A stretch of DNA of 63,823 nucleotides, counting the filler, from an uncultured Methanosarcinales archaeon (GTDB lineage: Archaea > Nanobdellota > Nanobdellia > Woesearchaeales > CAYNLP01), in assembly GCA_964398115.1 (NCBI GenBank). It is 4 parts of 4 records of this genome, joined end to end, with 100 filler letters (N's around TTAATTAATTAA, not from the genome) between each part and the next. Parts side by side here need not be neighbours in the genome. Positions count along the whole stretch, not along the records: positions 11,645 to 43,603 come from CAYNLP010000009.1; positions 43,704 to 63,823 come from CAYNLP010000016.1; 2 more parts are not named here. One strand, written 5' to 3'. Below, one piece after another: positions 18,001-45,000 of this stretch; within the stretch, counting starts at the first letter, position 1; each line of letters begins with the position of its first letter. The position numbers are program-made.

Positions 18001-21000
18001 TCTTCAATCTTTTTATCTAAAGAATCCTCGCTGATATCGGTTTCTTCCAAAATTTTTTCTTTAATCTTACTCATAGGAATGTTAATACTCAATTTTAGTA
18101 GCCCCCAATCTTTCGAGAGTTGCGATTAGTTTATAAAATTTTCTACCCTTAACTCGCCGAATTTTCCGACATTTCCGCGTTTTCTAATGGATTAGCTGGA
18201 CACTGTAACGAGCTAAATATACCTTCCAGTCTTCCTTGAATTATATTTTTCACTTGCTGCGTTTTTTGACTATATAATTGCTGCAAAACTCTTTGCCTGG
18301 TTTGTGCATCCCATAAACTCACTACTTGAGTCAGTACATCTTTAGGCATTACTTTCATCATTTCATCCATCGCTCTAGCTTTAGCGTCAGCACTTAACGA
18401 ATTTATTTCTTCATTAACTAATTGTACTATTTGATCTTCATCGAGTTGGTGAAGTTTTTCATATACTTGCTCTATCCTTTGTGAATCAACTTCAGGCATT
18501 ACTTGTTCTAACATTATTTCTTGAACTTGCACTCCATACTTGCCATCAATGACATCCCTCACTAATTTGTCTATTTGTTCTCTAGTGAGTTGCAAGTCGG
18601 TAACTAACTCTCGCATTTCCTCTTCGCCTGCTTCTGCGTTGAATTCAAGGTTGGTTTCGTGCAAATAATTTATGCGTTGATCTAAGTTGATTGATACTCT
18701 CCTACCTTTTTTCAACATTTCAGCTTTCCTTTCCACTGATAGTTCCGTCACAGTTTGTTTTGCAGCTTTCAAGATTAATTCTTGACTGGACTCGCTGAGT
18801 TCGGATACTTGTCTTGAAGTTTTCCTTACAAAGTTCTTTTTGTCTTCTAGTTTGGTCACGTTTGACAATTTATGCCTGGCTTTCCTCTTCCACTCTTCTG
18901 GTATTTCTCTATCTTGTACGAGATCTTGATACGTTTTTGACTTTTCTTCTGCTGTCCTTACGACTTGTTGTATGTTGTTTCTAAACTCTTCAGAGTTGAA
19001 TTCGTTTTCCACATCTCTTATGGCGTTGGTGACTACGTTATCACTTAATTCTTCACTTAGTCTGGTTTCTCCTACTTGCTTTGCTATTTCCGAATCGCCT
19101 ATTACTTGAATCGCTTTTGCTGGATTACCACTTTCTACGGCGTTGATGAAGTCGTCAGCGTTTTGAGTTATTTTAACGTAAGAATCTTTTATTTCACCTA
19201 GTCCGAGGAATTCTAACATTCTTTTCTCTATTGACACAAACTTTTCACAAGCTTGGATGGGTTCACCTCTTTGCCCGTTGCTGTCCATAGGGATGAGTGT
19301 CAAGCAGTAACTAGGGCTGGTCATTTGAGCTAGTTGGTTCATGAATTCGTTCCCACAAGTGTTCATAATGAAGCTTGTCTTATCTTGAATCTTTCGTGTT
19401 GGTATCTTTCTTGCGAAGTGCACGTTCCCATTTTCTCCTATGACTTTCATGTATTCACACGCTTTATCTTTTATCTCGGTCAATTTTTGTATCATGTCGA
19501 CTTCACTTTCTAGGTTTTGTTCTGCCCTTTGCACGTCTGATTGTAGATCGTTGAGGTATTGGTTGTCGACGCTAACTACTGAGTTTTCACTGCCTACATC
19601 TATGTCTCCTGCTGGGGTGTTTAGGCTGCACTGTACTTGGAATGCGGAAATGTCTGAAGTTTCTGGAACGTCTAGTTGGACTTGTAAAGCTGCTTTTTGC
19701 TGGTTGGGTAACATTTCCAGAATGCTTGGAGGAATTCCTAGTGCTAGGCTTAAGCCTTGAGTCACTACTTGTTCTTGTACTTGGCTGAACAAGTCTTGGT
19801 TGGATTTTTCGACTTGTTCCATGTTTACATTCACGTCTTCTTGTTTTGGTTTTTCATCTCTTAGTGTGAGTGCGAATTTAGAACGGATTGGTTTCTTCAC
19901 AGTGTTTCCATTTTCTTGTATTTTGTATTCTTTTCTTGACTCTGCGCATACGAGGAAGGTTCTCCTGTTCTCTGGGCATAACCCGATAGCTTGTTGGTTT
20001 TGTCCTTGTCCTGAAATCCCTCCTGCTACTTTTGTCAGTACTAATTTGTCTTTATTATTTTCTGGCTTGTATAAGTTCAAACTTTTATAGTCTCCAGATA
20101 GTTGTGAAGATTCTATTTCTATGTTGTTCCCCTCTTTCGTTATAGTTATGGAATCTAGTTTTTCGTTTGTATCGGCGGGTTGTGGATTATAATATGTGGT
20201 GTTTGTTTCCAGGTCGTACACTCTTTTGACGGGTTCTTCCATCTTTATCTTTTGACCTTCTAGTTTTATCTCGTAGTTTTTCGGATCATCTATTTCTGTC
20301 AAGTTCAATCTACAAACGCATCTGGCTCGATCGTTGGCAAGGCAGGTTTCAAATTCTTCCACTACTTTATAGAAGAAGTCGTATTGTTCGCATTGGCTAA
20401 CGTCATTGTAGAGTTTATAGGAATTATTTTCTGAATTGTATTGTCTTATTTTTTCTTTCAAGGTGGCTTGGGGGCTTTCATACGTTTCTTCCCAGGTGTT
20501 TCTCGCCCAGGTTATAACGCTTTGCATGTGTTTGGTAATGCCAGGTAGTTCCAAATCTGTTTTTACTTTGAAGTGTGGCATGACGGTATAGTTTGAACCT
20601 TTATTGAAGTATCCTTGATTAAGTTGTCCTTGTTCGCTTGTTCCTACGCCGGAGCATTGGCTTATACTTTCTTTGTCATAGCTTATTGTGTCTACAGTGC
20701 CTCCTCCGTATAGGTTTAGACAGTTATTAGCGGTAGGACTTGTTTGAGATTGTAAACTCTCGAGTTGGTTTTCGCTGTAAAAGCAGAAAGGATTCCTTCC
20801 TGTTTGTTGGTTTTGGCTTGTGTAAATTCCGAAGTGTAAGTGTTCTGCGCTGGACGCTCCGGTGTTACCCATCGTTCCGATTTGTTGTTCCTTATTTACT
20901 TTGTCTCCAACGTCTACGTTGACTGTTTCAAGGTGAGCGTATCTTGTGTGAAGGCCGTTGTCGTGTTTTATATACACGTAGTTGCCGTATCCGTTGCATT

Positions 21001-42000: not shown

Positions 42001-45000
42001 ACGGATCCATTGTCCATTCCTTGATTGTATCCACATTTTACCATGAACATTCGTGCGTTGGCGTCATCATCATATTTTGAGCTTATTCCTGCTATGAATC
42101 CTTCTCCACAATGAATCCCCCATGCCTCTTCACCATCAAAGTTAAGTCCCCAGTAAGTGTCTCCAGTGTTATACCAGTAGCTAGTGTTTGTCATGTAAGG
42201 GTTATCTACTGACGGTTCCGGGCACCATTGGTTTTCTCCAGGAGATCCACAAGACTCGTAGTTTATTTCTGTGCCTTGTGAATACGCGGGGAGTGGTCCT
42301 GCTTGTACTATGGTTGTTAGGAGTAGTGTTGAGAATAGTATTGTTAGTATGGTTGTGGTTTTTTTCATAAAGTGGTGTCCTCTTTTCTCTTGTTTTGTTT
42401 TTTTGGTTTTGTGTTATATAATTGTTTCGTCACCAGTTGGTGGCTTGTTGTGCTTCTTTTGGGTGCATTCCTATGGTTTTTCCTAAGGCTTCTAGTTCTT
42501 TTGGTGCTCGCATGTCGTATGGTTCTATGGCGAAGCTTGCGATTATCATGTCTACGTTGTATTTTCTGCATATCCGTACGTTTTGTTGCATTCTTCCTAG
42601 GGTTTGGCTGGCTTTTTCTTGGTTGTAGAGTTGGCTTAGGTTGAATGCTATGGCTGTGTTGTTTTCTCGTGCTTGTTTGGCTAGTTTTTGGTTTAGCCCG
42701 CTGGCTCTGTGGTGTACGAAGTCTTCTTTGTCTGTGTTTTCTAGGTTGAATATTATGTCTACTTTTGGTTCTTGGAACGCCCATTTTTTTCTTTCTGCTA
42801 GGATTAGGTCGTATTCGTTTTTGTTAGTGTCTTGTCTTTTTTGTGCTAGAAATGCAGTTTTTCCTTTTCTTTCTTTAGGTTGTTTTGTGTAGAGATAGAC
42901 TAGGTTGTTTATGCCGAGTTTTTCGCTCATTTCTTGGAATTCTTCTTCGTTTCCGTCTGGTATTACGATGTCTTTCATCACTTTTGTTATTTAAGAAGTG
43001 TTGGTTTATATTATATTTGGAAGAACCAGTTTAGCCAGTTTTTGAAGCCTTCCCACGCGTTTTGTACGAGACTTTCTGATTGTTTTTCCTTTTCTTGCTG
43101 TTTTGGTTGTTCTTTGTTGGCCTCTTTTTCCCGGGTTTGGTTGGTGTCGTTTTCTGTGAGTTCTCTTATTTTCTTGTTTAGTTCGTCGCCGCTGGTTAGG
43201 TTTGTATCGTTTGTGTCTATGGTTATGTTGGATGAAGTGTTAATATCTGTTTTTGTTTCGTTGGGCATGGTGTCGGTTACGGTCTTTTCTGAAATGTTGA
43301 GTTCTTCCTCTTCTTGTTTTGGTAGTGTGGTTTTTTCTATGTTGTATCGTTCATTTTCTCCTGTAATTTTTACTGCGTTTCCTTTTAGTCCGTAGTTTTT
43401 GTATTTGGCGAGTACGGTTGCTGCTTTGGCTGTGTCTTGTGGTGTTCCTCCGGCGACTATCATCCAGTCTTTGCCTAGGTCGCTTTCGTATAGGTAGATG
43501 TATCCGGTCCCGTTTTTGAAGTGGTTGCAGTTTTGTATTTGCATTATTTCTTGTGTTATTTGGTTGTCGCAGTTTGTTCCTATGCTGATGAGGTTGTGGC
43601 TTTNNNNNNNNNNNNNNNNNNNNNNNNNNNNNNNNNNNNNNNNNNNNTTAATTAATTAANNNNNNNNNNNNNNNNNNNNNNNNNNNNNNNNNNNNNNNNN
43701 NNNGTAATCTCAACATCCATCAAAATCACCAAGTAAGATTAATCTTACACTATTTATATAGTTTTCGTTTAGGAAATCAGAAAGCTTCCGATGCCAGCAA
43801 AACTTTTCCCAGAATCTCTGGATTCTGGCTGTTGTGAAATTTCTTCGATAAAAAGACTGTTTTGGAAAGTGTTGAGAAATAACTTTTTCGTAAAAATTAT
43901 AAACTAATCTCTACCCATTTTCTTATAATGGAGTATGAACGTTCGGGGTTGGGAGTTTTAGTTACAACCTTATTAGTTGGCGTCACGGCTTGTTCAAACG
44001 GGGAACACCAAGACTATATAGAGGGCACGGTCGTGGGAGAATTCGGAAGCGTCCACAACCAAGTTGAAAATAATTCTCAAATTCGCAACGATTCAACAGA
44101 GCAAAAAAGTTACGGGTTGAAAGTAAGGACGGACAGTGCAAGATATGTTTTAGAAATCACAAGCAGCATTCAAGACTACAAAGGAAATCTAATTCACAAC
44201 CATACACCTCGAGATAGAGGAAGAACACTACTGGGACTAGCCGCGTCTATCGAACCCGGAACGAAGATAAAATTTCCCACCAAGTACGTAGGAGAAAATA
44301 AACAAATAAAGTTATTCGGTAAAGACAAGATAGGAATAGTCGCAAACAAAACATTAGACATAATCCGATACGCGCATGAAAGAAACGATGAAAAAGAATT
44401 CGCCACCCCCGACTAAAAATTTCAAGAGAGAAAACCATTTAAACCACGACTTCCTCTACCCACTAATATGTTAGACCTGATAGGAAGAAGAGAAAGAGCA
44501 ACACCACTAGATTTTTACAAACAACTAAGCAAAGTAGACTACAAACCCGTAAATCAAGTAATACAAGAACTTGAATACAGAGGATACAAAGCCCAACACT
44601 TAAGAGGAAGCCTAGCACAAAGTTCTATACAAAATTGGTTACACACTTGGGAAAGAGACGGCTACGTAGAACCAAAAATGGTCGAAACCGAAGACGGCGA
44701 AGACTTTGCTTGGAAAAGAACAAAAAACTTAGAAACTTTAACAGAACAAGAACTCCTAAAAGCAATGTCTCCCTTATAAAAAGAGACAAAAAACTATATT
44801 CTTAAAACGCTTTTCGAACTTTAATTATTCTAAAATGCTAAAGCTTAAAAATGAAGTATTGATATGGAACAATCCGATGAAAACGCCACAAGGAAATTAT
44901 CCACTACTGGAATTGAAAGAAAAAGCAATGTCAGAGGTCTATAACCTCGTTTATAGCATTGTACAATATAAGTGTACAGAGGAAGGTATACAACGTTTCG

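What a model noticed while it worked through the whole genome (the two positions that open the first line are those of the whole stretch)
18149..42368. 24-kb operon of ~19 prepilin-like proteins in which two peptidoglycan hydrolases (M23, SLT) carry type IV pilin signals [...]
A single-strand run of 22 genes, only two with a Pfam name (g00597-g00618), encodes 16 proteins with an archaeal class III (type IV prepilin) signal by a strict scan and 3 more with a near-motif (g00599, g00601, g00613): short basic N-terminus, K/R-G/A, then a ~20-residue hydrophobic helix. Among them are three tandem 80-88-aa Cys-containing candidates for the major pilin (g00608-g00610) and two murein hydrolases: a 1230-aa protein with an intact M23 metallopeptidase domain (g00597) and a 243-aa lytic transglycosylase (g00603). 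The reading is that this archaeon mounts peptidoglycan-cutting enzymes as pilin-like subunits on a type IV pilus-like fibre, a device aimed at a bacterial cell wall, [...]
Evidence so far: Signal scan of all 1249 proteins ([KR][GA] in the first 25 residues followed by a 15-residue stretch of mean hydropathy >=2.0): 54 hits, 16 in the 22 genes of this locus, e.g. MMKKG|QITWRTILTLFIVAAITVIVL (g00603), MKIESKKG|YVYSLIVLITLISLLIF (g00597), MKKG|QGLSMNVIIIAAIALLILVIL (g00609). M23: Pfam 88 bits, PHROG peptidase/endolysin hits E 1e-17..1e-21; alignment to solved M23 peptidases keeps FHDGID (HxxxD) and HLHF (HxH). SLT: Pfam PF01464; Glu of the E-S motif (AQQES, E109), GIMQ and AYN motifs invariant in an alignment with four Woesearchaeales homologues. 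AlphaFold2 of g00603 (5-row alignment, mean pLDDT 77.5): N-terminal helix 9-28, low-confidence linker, lysozyme-like domain 60-240 at p [...]
(Added by a program. Inside this text positions count along the whole contig: they may not be those of the stretch shown here. "Call 12" and the like, gene names such as g00115 and contig names such as C1 are that model's own, and its searches are not shown. The text may have been shortened before it was handed on; [...] marks where a part breaks off. The agent that wrote the report below was given it as the finding of a first reader that could run no searches.)

Follow-up and report, generated by a model that had tools for sequence, protein, structure and literature searches.

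The report
Archaeal pilin-like operon carrying wall-cutting enzymes
A tiny Woesearchaeota-type archaeon that makes no bacterial-type cell wall has a conserved 24-kb operon of pilus-subunit-like proteins, two of which carry enzymes that cut bacterial cell walls, which points to a surface apparatus aimed at bacteria.

Summary
Window 18149-42368 (minus strand, contig C9) is a tight run of 21 ORFs plus a 31-aa mini-ORF. About 17 start with K/R-G/A followed by a hydrophobic helix, and 3 giants have Sec-type signals. g597 has an intact M23 domain and g603 an SLT domain.

New here:
- The whole operon is syntenic across the order, between the RNase P p30 and RPA genes.
- The N-terminal ~190 aa of g597 is a conserved carrier module, found in 262 of 301 genomes. 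Its downstream slot holds at least 10 different peptidoglycan-active families; 66 of 150 representatives carry one.
- The genome lacks Mur ligase, PBP and FtsW, so the target is foreign murein.
- No ATPase lies in the locus. A near-universal, divergent FlaI/TadA-like ATPase with an 8-TM platform-like protein sits elsewhere. In 5 near-complete relatives it is the only such motor found, and the prepilin peptidase is kept.

Not shown: signal cleavage, a fibre, or enzyme activity. The carrier module's predicted fold is not clearly pilin-like, and g603's signal is not conserved in its closest relatives.

This scan found the same system before in other genomes. The hydrolases are in print, but my searches did not find the pilin link. 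Verdict: new variant of a known kind, interest 0.7.

The parts
39525..42368 (-). g618: 947-aa secreted protein with a Sec-type signal (MKKTTTILTILFSTLLLTTIVQA|G) and 46 Cys. First gene of the operon.
   Evidence: homologues at the same position in G025, G098, G173, G220
38059..39513 (-). g617: 484-aa protein with a class III-type signal (MRKG|QFTILVV...). Relatives are 415-1062 aa.
   Evidence: a paralogue lies on G000:C1
34918..38028 (-). g616: 1036-aa secreted giant with a Sec-type signal and 56 Cys.
32499..34928 (-). g615: 809-aa surface protein with a Sec-type signal, an Ig-like Big_13 domain, a C-terminal membrane helix and a basic tail.
   Evidence: (31.4 bits, cut-off 27)
29954..32518 (-). 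g614, g613, g612, g611: four overlapping genes of 167, 358, 161 and 169 aa with class III-type signals (KKA|Q, KTG|Q, KKA|M, KKG|Q). The block keeps its order in relatives.
29096..29916 (-). g610, g609, g608: three tandem small class III proteins of 80, 88 and 85 aa with 6 Cys each. They are candidate major subunits.
27712..29094 (-). g607: 460-aa class III-type protein (MNTKG|ELSALKVV...) with 16 Cys.
27565..27660 (-). 31-aa mini-ORF that is a single hydrophobic helix. Its stop overlaps the g605 start (ATGA). Whether it is a real gene is uncertain.
   Evidence: read directly from the sequence
25999..27568 (-). g605 and g604: paralogous class III-type proteins of 221 and 305 aa.
   Evidence: 25% identity, E 2.6e-10
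25118..25849 (-). g603: 243-aa protein with a class III-type signal (MMKKG|QITW...), a linker and an SLT lytic transglycosylase domain (E109, GIMQ, AYN).
   Evidence: homologues in 36 of 301 genomes, mostly inside larger proteins
23326..25081 (-). g602 and g601: Cys-rich class III-type proteins of 222 and 358 aa. They lie in the variable middle of the operon.
21831..23284 (-). g600, g599, g598: three small pilin-like proteins of 138, 163 and 182 aa that always precede the carrier gene. g599 is leaderless here.
18149..21841 (-). g597: 1230-aa carrier protein. It has a class III-type signal (MKIESKKG|YVY...), a conserved N-module (aa ~34-200), an M23 peptidase (aa ~207-345; H232, D236, H334, H336) and an ~870-aa E/Q/K-rich tail of unknown fold.

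Best explanation
The locus encodes a surface apparatus that is ancestral to, and nearly universal in, the Woesearchaeota-type order.

Composition:
- Three giant Cys-rich proteins are exported by Sec.
- About 17 proteins carry prepilin-type (class III) signals.
- The last gene, g597, is a carrier. It has a class III signal, a conserved ~190-aa N-module and an exchangeable effector slot. In this genome the slot holds an intact M23 peptidase, and a separate small protein, g603, adds an SLT lytic transglycosylase.

Proposed mechanism (all steps inferred):
1. The genome's single A24 (FlaK-like) peptidase cuts after the G/A.
2. The remaining hydrophobic N-terminal helices let a type IV filament motor assemble the proteins into a short fibre, pseudopilus or bindosome-like envelope structure. 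The best candidate motor is the near-universal divergent FlaI/TadA-like ATPase with its adjacent 8-TM platform-like protein on contig C12.
3. This structure presents the hydrolases outside the cell. The small 80-88-aa proteins would form the bulk, and g600, g599, g598 and g597 would form a terminal complex.
4. Because the archaeon has no peptidoglycan pathway, the enzymes act on the walls of bacteria, for attachment, breaching or feeding.

Shown here: the signals and their conservation, the synteny, the domain swapping, intact catalytic motifs and an M23 fold, absence of murein synthesis genes, and presence of the peptidase and motors.
For: 1. Signals.
- K/R-G/A directly before the helix occurs in 15 of 19 locus ORFs (one of them the Sec-type g616) against 33 of 274 other ORFs with an N-terminal hydrophobic segment.
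- It occurs in at least 121 of 155 such ORFs in the operons of 12 relatives, with Gln at +1 in 48 of the 121.
- It occurs in at least 135 of 150 carrier-family representatives.
- The canonical pilins of this genome's own pilus loci use the same K/R-G/A-Q leader.
- The leaderless g599 begins exactly where homologues would be cut.

2. Synteny.
- The g618-to-g597 order, and the flanks RNase P p30 and RPA, are kept in relatives of other families.

3. Carrier module.
- The module profile hits 262 of 301 order genomes, and 196 of 222 high-quality ones.
- It hits 2120 cluster representatives among 1.84 billion proteins. In 147 of the 150 best the match begins within the protein's first 17 residues; in the other three it begins at residue 22, 23 or 28.

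4. Effector slot.
- 66 of the 150 representatives carry at least one peptidoglycan-active Pfam domain starting at about aa 170-290.
- The families are M23 (22), VanY/M15 (17), SLT (15), Amidase_2 (5), NlpC/P60 (4), Glucosaminidase (4), 3D (2), Amidase_3 (1), YkuD (1) and CHAP (1).
- Two genomes of one genus differ: G237 has M23 plus SLT, and G175 has Amidase_2.
- Other class III proteins in the middle of relatives' operons carry M15_4, 3D and C39_2.

5. Enzyme integrity.
- HxxxD and HxH are present.
- The AlphaFold2 model has pLDDT 81.3. Its M23 part matches StM23, DipM-LytM, lysostaphin and LytM at Foldseek E 3e-10 to 2e-9 and TM(target) about 0.8.

6. No own wall.
- There are 0 matches to Mur_ligase_M, Transpeptidase or FTSW_RODA_SPOVE in the 91%-complete genome.

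7. Machinery.
- The genome has one A24 peptidase and two canonical ATPase/platform loci.
- A third motor lies on C12. Its 761-aa ATPase scores 57 bits to T2SSE and is nearest to FlaI and TadA in NCBIfam.
- Its 743-aa 8-TM neighbour aligns by hhalign to the TadB/C-like platforms at 79.9% probability, E 1.4e-5.
- The pair is 62% and 51-55% identical across the order, and the ATPase N-domain is found in 291 of 301 genomes.
- Five relatives that are 96-99% complete and carry the carrier module (the full syntenic operon was seen in three of them, G025, G098 and G220) have 0 of 5 PF00482 platforms but 5 of 5 A24 peptidases. In four of the five the best T2SSE hit is only about 1e-14 to 1e-16, and in G220 it is 6e-6 because its ATPase gene carries an insertion.

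8. Literature.
- A 2026 census states that in DPANN archaea the ATPase and platform lie together while the pilins are scattered, and it proposes class III-signal functional proteins riding on type IV filaments (PMC13705601, passages).
Against: - No experiment or expression data exist; no RNA run holds the locus.
- No curated pilin family matches any locus protein. Pfam shows none at E <= 0.01. NCBIfam shows only a GspG hit for g611 at E 0.0045, far below its cut-off.
- The carrier module's model breaks the N-terminal helix at residue 33, inserts a hairpin and starts a second helix at 48-84.
- For that model Foldseek gives nothing at E <= 0.001 (best 1.5), and the wide structural search peaks at Z 7.2 on a phage sheath domain. 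The pilin PilJ appears only at Z 4.6, rank 25, within noise.
- A K/R-G/A before a membrane helix is also compatible with an uncleaved signal anchor.
- The motor is assigned only by elimination. It is near-universal, so co-occurrence cannot discriminate: it is also present in genomes where the module was not found.
- The platform homology is moderate (79.9%).
- g603's orthologues in the same genus (G057) and family (G166) lack K/R-G/A.
- 84 of the 150 carrier representatives show no peptidoglycan-active domain. 44 of these are 290 aa or shorter.
Confidence: 0.6

Rival explanations
1. The N-termini are plain, uncleaved signal anchors. The operon would encode a membrane-anchored envelope complex, possibly the cell's surface layer and its anchors. 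The murein hydrolases would be tethered to the archaeal membrane, and no type IV filament machinery would be involved.
For: - No pilin family match was found.
- The carrier module's fold is not clearly pilin-like.
- No ATPase lies in the locus in any of the 12 relatives read.
- The operon is near-universal and sits between housekeeping genes, as a core envelope component would.
- Giant Cys-rich Sec proteins and a C-terminally anchored protein belong to it.
Against: - The strict positional conservation of K/R-G/A, often followed by Q, across about 15 unrelated families and hundreds of genomes is not expected of ordinary anchors: 12% background in this genome against 79% in the locus.
- The same leader is used by the genome's bona fide pilins.
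- Minimal relatives with no canonical pilus locus still keep an A24 peptidase, 5 of 5.
- The leaderless g599 starts at the predicted cut site.
Confidence: 0.2
2. The pilin-like proteins form a type II secretion-like pseudopilus. It would push the giant Sec-exported proteins and the hydrolases through the envelope. The hydrolases would be released cargo or bacteriolytic exo-enzymes rather than subunits.
For: - There are many minor-pilin-like genes and a few small 'major' ones, as in secretion pseudopili.
- Three large secreted proteins are encoded in the same operon.
- Secreted archaeal peptidoglycan hydrolases that kill bacteria are documented (PMC12352652, passages).
Against: - The hydrolases themselves carry the class III signal and the conserved carrier module. 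This argues that they are built in rather than pushed out.
- No outer membrane or secretin-like gene was seen in the locus.
Confidence: 0.12
3. The hydrolases remodel a wall polymer of the archaeon itself.
For: Autolysins of bacteria use the same domains, which is general knowledge. Some archaea have pseudomurein.
Against: - There are no Mur ligase, PBP transpeptidase or FtsW/RodA matches in the 91%-complete genome, while the control genomes ring.
- Ten different bond specificities are swapped into one slot. This fits varied foreign targets better than one self polymer.
Confidence: 0.03

Closest known systems
Modular type IV pilins of bacteria (Streptococcus sanguinis PilB-vWA and PilC-lectin; CofB, GspK), PMC8179133 (passages read; Dataset S1 searched)
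   Same: An N-terminal class III signal and carrier part is joined to a grafted functional module. Many different modules sit on one scaffold, and tip display is proposed. Peptidase modules (S74, M26) are predicted in that census.
   Different: - The present system is archaeal.
- The carrier module is a family of its own with no match to pilin models.
- The grafted modules are peptidoglycan hydrolases of at least 10 families.
- In the held Dataset S1 the accession I recall as Peptidase M23 (IPR016047) occurs once, in an 'Unclear' architecture, and the recalled SLT accessions do not occur.
Bindosome of Saccharolobus solfataricus, and the 'functionalised type IV filaments' proposed for archaeal class III-signal substrate-binding proteins (PMC13705601, passages)
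   Same: Non-structural, functional proteins carry class III signals. They are processed like pilins and depend on an ATPase/platform pair encoded elsewhere. In DPANN archaea the motor genes lie together and the pilins are scattered.
   Different: - The cargo here is lytic enzymes against another organism's wall, not solute-binding proteins.
- They sit in one large operon of about 17 pilin-like genes.
- That paper's main text has no occurrence of peptidoglycan, M23 or transglycosylase.
[quoted passage not shown]
   Same: The lineage is the same. SLT domains occur in proteins of up to thousands of residues, with a proposed role in attaching to or degrading bacterial walls. Several g597-family members are such proteins (G237, G067, G175).
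   Different: - Those papers do not mention pili or pilins: 0 occurrences in each main text.
- They do not describe the class III signal, the carrier module, the operon or the swapping with nine other hydrolase families.
Secreted archaeal peptidoglycan hydrolases that kill bacteria (Halogranum 'Woldo', PMC12352652, passages)
   Same: Archaeal enzymes are aimed at bacterial murein, in modular catalytic-plus-binding architectures.
   Different: - Those use Sec or Tat signals and are free exo-enzymes.
- The main text has 0 occurrences of pilin, pili or class III.
Epd-type (system 1) pili of methanogens
   Same: The leader ends in K/R-G with Gln at +1; that this is an EppA-substrate feature is recalled, not from a call. 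Many minor pilin genes are present. The 2026 census reports system 1 pilins in 1990 DPANN genomes.
   Different: - The two canonical loci of this genome (C6, C27), each with two platform genes, fit system 1. The operon studied here is separate from them.
- Its protein families match none of the curated pilin models.

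Membership tests
Type IV pilin-like (class III signal) proteins of archaea | Short basic leader ending in G/A with K/R at -2, directly followed by a hydrophobic stretch of about 20 residues | tested here: met
   16 locus proteins by eye. 15 of 19 in the locus (including the Sec-type g616) against 33 of 274 in the genome background. At least 121 of 155 in relatives' operons. At least 135 of 150 carrier representatives.
Type IV pilin-like (class III signal) proteins of archaea | Cleavage of the leader by an A24 prepilin peptidase | not testable with these tools
   One A24 gene is present (52.3 bits; nearest to FlaK). The leaderless g599 begins at the predicted cut site.
Type IV pilin-like (class III signal) proteins of archaea | Long N-terminal helix carrying a beta-rich globular head (lollipop fold) | tested here: inconclusive
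   Carrier module model (pLDDT 78.9): H6-33, hairpin, H48-84, H124-144, hairpin 158-175. Foldseek best E 1.5. Wide search best Z 7.2; PilJ at Z 4.6, rank 25.
Type IV pilin-like (class III signal) proteins of archaea | Match to a curated pilin or archaellin N-terminal model | tested here: not met
   No pilin family at E <= 0.01 in Pfam for 21 proteins. NCBIfam shows only GspG for g611, at E 0.0045 and 17 bits against a cut-off of 88.85.
Type IV filament system | Assembly ATPase and platform protein | tested here: met
   None in the locus. Elsewhere in the genome there are two canonical pairs and a third, divergent pair on C12. Which one serves this operon is inferred only.
Type IV filament system | Polymerisation of subunits into a filament | not testable with these tools
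No imaging data exist.
Peptidase M23 (LytM/lysostaphin type) | Pfam domain above the gathering score, with the HxxxD and HxH motifs | tested here: met
   88.1 bits against 28.7. FHDGID at 231 and HLHF at 334. The role of these motifs as zinc and catalytic residues is recalled knowledge.
Peptidase M23 (LytM/lysostaphin type) | M23 fold | tested here: met
   Foldseek against the PDB gives 9gy1, 7qrl, 4qpb and 2b13 at E 3e-10 to 2e-9 and TM(target) 0.78-0.82.
SLT / family 1 lytic transglycosylase (PF01464) | Pfam domain above the gathering score, with the catalytic Glu-Ser and the GxMQ and AYN motifs | tested here: met
   41.2 bits against 21.3. E109 in AQQES, GIMQ at 129, AYN at 216. The motif names are recalled. 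There is no solved-structure sequence relative at E <= 0.01.
Modular pilins (sense of PMC8179133) | N-terminal class III signal and carrier part, followed by a functional module not specific to pilus biology | tested here: met
   The architecture is seen in g597 and in 66 of 150 family representatives. The bacterial IPR012902 motif that defines that census was not tested, as no InterPro scan is available.
fam00969 murein transglycosylase giants (PMC8204110) | Membership of that protein cluster | not tested
SLT-bearing members of the g597 family (G237, 1280 aa; G067, 1178 aa) fit its description.

The most novel reading that the evidence does not exclude
Woesearchaeota-type archaea possess a dedicated, order-wide type IV filament machine. 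The near-universal divergent FlaI-like ATPase and its 8-TM platform would assemble the operon's ~17 prepilin-like proteins into a host-contact fibre. Its terminal subunit, the g597 family, would carry an exchangeable murein-hydrolase 'warhead', comparable in logic to phage tail lysins. The repertoire of warheads would reflect which bacteria each lineage attaches to or feeds on. That would make bacteria, not archaea, the main partners of this large DPANN group, and it would give the first molecular handle on the interaction.
Probability: 0.3. Interest if true: 0.85.

Novelty: new variant of a known kind. Interest (0 to 1): 0.7.

Why it matters
- Most DPANN archaea are uncultured, and for Woesearchaeota neither the partners nor the contact apparatus are known. 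Published work notes their murein hydrolases but treats them as free extracellular enzymes.
- Placing those enzymes on a conserved prepilin-type carrier, at the end of a near-universal operon and with a candidate motor, turns a vague 'may attack bacteria' into a testable machine.
- The parts that can be tested are defined: the cleavage site, the carrier module, the effector slot and the ATPase/platform pair.
- The work predicts that effector type tracks host wall chemistry.
- It extends the idea of functionalised type IV filaments from binding proteins to lytic enzymes, and from bacteria to archaea.

Tried and rejected
- RNA evidence: no RNA holder is listed for the locus. Only 2 DNA holders were found, both from one sediment study.
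- Word-indexed homologue search with g603 found only itself.
- phmmer of g603 against PDB sequences found nothing at E <= 0.01.
- The module profile against PDB sequences found nothing below E 0.15. A 'geopilin' N-helix hit at E 0.39 is insignificant.
- ESM Atlas: the nearest clusters are all unnamed archaeal hypothetical proteins.
- The search for related loci with the module alignment failed for lack of a conserved stretch. The ATPase was used instead. This gave organism titles, mostly Candidatus Woesearchaeota or Nanoarchaeia, with many records labelled 'uncultured Methanosarcinales'.
- Co-occurrence of the C12-type ATPase with the operon cannot discriminate, because both are near-universal: 291 of 301 and 262 of 301.
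- Self-comparison of g597 showed no internal repeat.
- Own-wall remodelling was rejected.
- Mobile-element origin was rejected: the chromosomal flanks are conserved across families.

Full report
**Placement and observation**

The window is a concatenation. Positions 11645-43603 are contig C9 (31,959 b) of a 1.00-Mb genome in 67 contigs, 91% complete with 0.64% contamination. The finding's coordinates are window coordinates.

On the minus strand from 42368 down to 18149 I see 21 ORFs of 80-1230 aa, plus a 31-aa single-helix mini-ORF at 27565-27660 whose stop overlaps the next start. Most neighbours overlap by 4-20 nt or are 57 nt or less apart. The largest gap is 149 nt, upstream of g603.

The flanks are housekeeping genes. 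Downstream lie an RPA-like OB-fold protein and a small HTH protein. Upstream lies RNase P p30, and RadA is further downstream. The organism is therefore an archaeon. Public titles of close relatives of one of its conserved proteins read mostly Candidatus Woesearchaeota or Nanoarchaeia.

**Domains**

Pfam on the 21 proteins gives hits above the curated cut-off in three:
- Peptidase_M23 in g597, aa 231-344, 88.1 bits.
- SLT in g603, aa 95-171, 41.2 bits.
- Big_13 in g615, 31.4 bits.

An AlphaFold2 model of g597 residues 1-360 used a 30-row alignment and reached pLDDT 81.3. Its M23 part matches StM23, DipM-LytM, lysostaphin and LytM at Foldseek E 3e-10 to 2e-9 with TM(target) about 0.8.

**Signals**

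- Sixteen locus proteins start with a short basic leader ending in K/R-G/A, followed by about 20 hydrophobic residues, often with Gln at +1.
- g613 has KTG|Q.
- g599 has no leader at all.
- g615, g616 and g618 have classical Sec signals with an A-x-A-type end.
- A crude whole-genome scan found the motif in 59 of 1244 ORFs, 16 of them on C9. One of the 16 is a spurious opposite-strand ORF that displaced g608 and g609, and one is the Sec-type g616.
- As a sharper control I took only ORFs that have an N-terminal hydrophobic segment. K/R-G/A sits just before it in 15 of 19 in the locus (including the Sec-type g616) against 33 of 274 elsewhere. Many of those 33 are the pilins of the two canonical pilus loci on C6 and C27, which use the same K/R-G/A-Q leader.

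The enrichment is therefore real and matches this organism's own pilin signals.

**Conservation**

BLAST of the 21 proteins against ORFs of 12 relatives' regions shows that the whole order g618, g617, g616, g615, g614, g613, g612, g611, g605/g604, small subunits, a variable middle, g600, g599, a g598-position gene, g597 is kept in other families of the order. The same RNase P p30 and RPA flanks are kept too. This is a vertically inherited core operon, not a mobile island.

In those operons 168 ORFs lie on the operon strand. Of these, 155 have an N-terminal hydrophobic segment and at least 121 have K/R-G/A/S just before it. Position -1 is G in 70, A in 42 and S in 9. Position +1 is Q in 48. My window rule missed several obvious cases, so 121 is a lower bound.

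In the g599 family most members read RKAQ|LDF, RKGQ|VKY or KKGD|VSF. The protein of this genome, and independently that of G173, begin with Met exactly at the predicted mature end. This fits a cut after the G/A.

**The carrier family**

The first 200 residues of g597 alone find relatives in 130 of 301 sampled genomes of the order, always at the N-terminus of ORFs of 168-1551 aa.

A profile of 30 such modules finds 262 of 301 genomes, 196 of 222 high-quality genomes and 193 of 216 genera, mostly in a single copy. It also finds 2120 cluster representatives among 1.84 billion proteins: 1454 at E <= 1e-10 and 294 at E <= 1e-30. In 147 of the 150 best the match begins within the protein's first 17 residues; in the other three it begins at residue 22, 23 or 28.

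These tallies include up to nine genomes flagged as unpublished (G208, G210, G206, G183, G244, G121, G112, G273, G132). Removing them would change each count by nine at most. No alignment, fold or profile used them.

The module has an invariant Gly (G47 in 'IGxxQ'), the motif YIDQAAKYS, two conserved Cys and a Trp.

**The exchangeable slot**

Directly after the module, at about residue 170-290, different members carry different peptidoglycan-active domains. Among the 150 best representatives, 66 carry at least one at E <= 1e-4:

| Pfam family | Representatives |
|---|---|
| M23 | 22 |
| VanY / Peptidase_M15 group | 17 |
| SLT | 15 |
| Amidase_2 | 5 |
| NlpC/P60 | 4 |
| Glucosaminidase | 4 |
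| 3D | 2 |
| Amidase_3 | 1 |
| YkuD | 1 |
| CHAP | 1 |

- Two more representatives carry Peptidase_C39_2 and three carry only fn3.
- 45 of the 150 are 290 aa or shorter, being module-only proteins or fragments. Among the 105 longer ones, 65 carry such a domain.
- Full-length relatives show M23 plus SLT (G237), Amidase_2 (G175, same genus as G237), Glucosaminidase (G220) and NlpC/P60 plus SLT (G067).
- Other class III proteins in the variable middle of relatives' operons carry M15_4 (G131), 3D (G220) and C39_2 (G022). This is the position that the small SLT protein g603 occupies here.
- SLT homologues of g603 occur in 36 of 301 genomes, mostly inside large ORFs.
- For only 8 of the 29 SLT loci did the stored flank reach the N-terminus. 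Of those 8, 3 have a K/R-G/A signal. The orthologues in the same genus (G057) and family (G166) have a hydrophobic N-terminus without it.

**Target**

The genome gives no match to Mur_ligase_M, the PBP transpeptidase domain or FtsW/RodA, while the control genomes ring. At 91% completeness this does not prove absence, but an own murein wall is very unlikely. The enzymes therefore most likely act on bacterial walls.

**Machinery**

The locus has no ATPase, here or in any relative read. Elsewhere the genome has:
- One A24 prepilin peptidase (C3, 293 aa; nearest to FlaK in NCBIfam).
- Two canonical loci (C6, C27), each with an ATPase, two T2SSF-type platform genes and pilins of the QAAxEFLxTYGWA type.
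- A PIN-ATPase-KH protein unrelated to secretion.
- A third pair on C12, described below.

The C12 pair consists of a 761-aa ATPase and an adjacent 743-aa protein.
- The ATPase's C-terminal half is a T2SSE domain (57 bits). Its best NCBIfam neighbours are FlaI (127 bits) and TadA-type ATPases.
- The 743-aa protein has eight predicted membrane helices. Its last 260 residues align by profile-profile comparison to the TadB/C-like platforms of C6 and C27 at 79.9% probability, E 1.4e-5, over 236 columns.
- The pair is 62% and 51-55% identical in relatives of other families, far more conserved than the operon proteins at 20-35%. It is syntenic with three 5-TM paralogues and two coiled-coil proteins.
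- The ATPase's specific N-terminal 400 residues are found in 291 of 301 genomes, and in 220 of 222 high-quality ones.

Five relatives carry the carrier module and are 96-99% complete: G025, G098, G220, G150 and G032. The full syntenic operon was seen in three of them, G025, G098 and G220. None has a PF00482 platform (0 of 5), yet all five keep an A24 peptidase. Their best T2SSE score is only of the C12 type.

By elimination, the C12 pair is the best candidate to handle the operon's proteins. Because both are near-universal, co-occurrence cannot test this.

A 2026 census of archaeal type IV filaments states that in DPANN archaea the ATPase and platform lie together while the pilins are scattered. 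It also proposes that class III-signal functional proteins ride on such filaments (PMC13705601, passages). So a motor outside the locus is the rule in this group.

**Is the carrier a pilin?**

This remains open.
- The module folded alone (pLDDT 78.9, pTM 0.63) gives helix 6-33, a hairpin at 35-45, a second long helix at 48-84, a low-confidence loop with the two Cys, helix 124-144 and a hairpin at 158-175.
- Foldseek finds nothing at E <= 0.001 (best E 1.5).
- A search over 48,161 chains peaks at Z 7.2 on a phage sheath domain, within the tool's stated noise. The pilin PilJ appears only at Z 4.6, rank 25.
- No Pfam or NCBIfam pilin model matches any locus protein.

**Interpretation**

The data strongly support a conserved apparatus made of prepilin-type proteins that displays exchangeable murein hydrolases against foreign walls. 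They do not decide whether it is a long fibre, a short pseudopilus or a bindosome-like envelope structure. I give the filament-family reading 0.6, plain signal anchors 0.2, a secretion pseudopilus 0.12 and self-wall remodelling 0.03.

**Prior knowledge**

In print (passages read, not whole papers):
- Large SLT proteins of Woesearchaeota and Pacearchaeota (PMC8204110).
- 'Predatory' Woesearchaeota with GH23 enzymes (PMC9723730).
- Secreted archaeal hydrolases that kill bacteria (PMC12352652).
- Bacterial modular pilins (PMC8179133).
- Archaeal class III binding proteins on filaments (PMC13705601).

The first three have no occurrence of pili or pilin in their main text. The last has none of peptidoglycan, M23 or transglycosylase. 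The 2016 census (PMC4858521, passages) has no DPANN mention.

Full-text searches combining DPANN or Woesearchaeota with pili, pilin and peptidoglycan terms returned nothing linking them.

In the held supplement of PMC8179133, the accession I recall as Peptidase M23 occurs once, in an 'Unclear' architecture, and the recalled SLT accessions do not occur. I could not see the supplements of PMC13705601 or PMC8204110.

**Earlier notes of this scan**

After I had stated my reading, look-ups showed that this scan had already described the same system in at least eleven other genomes. One note is marked 'part of it fell', without saying which part. These are unchecked AI notes and I count them as leads only.

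The following were tested here on this genome and its relatives: the operon, the signals, the swapping of hydrolases, and the lack of a wall pathway.

As far as those short notes show, four results here go beyond them:
- the candidate motor and its status as the only motor in minimal genomes;
- the leaderless g599;
- the family-wide tally of ten catalytic families;
- the negative fold result for the carrier module.

Noticed in passing
G000:C12 14920-22366 (not in the window); relatives L101, L102, L103: A conserved cluster: three paralogous 5-TM proteins (180-202 aa), two coiled-coil cytoplasmic proteins, a 761-aa FlaI/TadA-like ATPase and a 743-aa 8-TM platform-like protein. The ATPase and the 8-TM protein are 62% and 51-55% identical across the order, and the ATPase N-domain is found in 291 of 301 genomes.
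   Followed up: partly
G220:C1 230494-234291 (L094, L095); also G076, G072, G231: In some relatives the C12-type ATPase ORF is 1255-1278 aa. In G220 the match is split at about query residue 500 by a ~500-aa insertion, which may be an intein.
   Followed up: no
window 18149-42368, all 21 proteins: Every protein of the locus has an even number of cysteines (0, 2, 4, 6, 8, 10, 12, 16, 20, 24, 46, 56). This fits disulfide-bonded extracellular proteins.
   Followed up: no
window 22376-22867 (g599): g599 lacks the leader and starts 'MVDF' where homologues read 'RKAQ|LDF' or 'RKGQ|VKY'. The G173 homologue is leaderless as well.
   Followed up: partly
window 27565-27660, minus strand: A 31-aa ORF consisting of one hydrophobic helix. 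Its TGA overlaps the ATG of g605 (ATGA).
   Followed up: no
L042 (G166), L071 (G057), L044 (G005), alignment A1: In three M23-bearing homologues the second zinc motif reads H-L-D instead of H-x-H, while this genome keeps HLHF.
   Followed up: no
G000:C1 52158-57997 (not shown to lie in the window): A second copy of a 'giant Sec protein plus class III protein' pair: 1242 aa and 704 aa. The N-terminus MKKG|QFTITVI resembles that of g617.
   Followed up: no
window 1-11644 and 43604-63823: These parts of the window are not on contig C9. Genes there, such as the PKD-rich 711-aa protein at 50595-52730, are not neighbours of the operon.
   Followed up: yes
loci L106, L109, L110 and others: Many public records encoding close relatives (60-68% identity) of the C12-type ATPase are titled 'uncultured Methanosarcinales archaeon', beside records titled Woesearchaeota or Nanoarchaeia. 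This is probably a labelling artefact.
   Followed up: no
G014:C56 7097-7600: A strong T2SSE match with 6 in-frame TGA codons, in a genome with 6% contamination. It may be a contaminant contig from an organism that reads TGA as sense.
   Followed up: no
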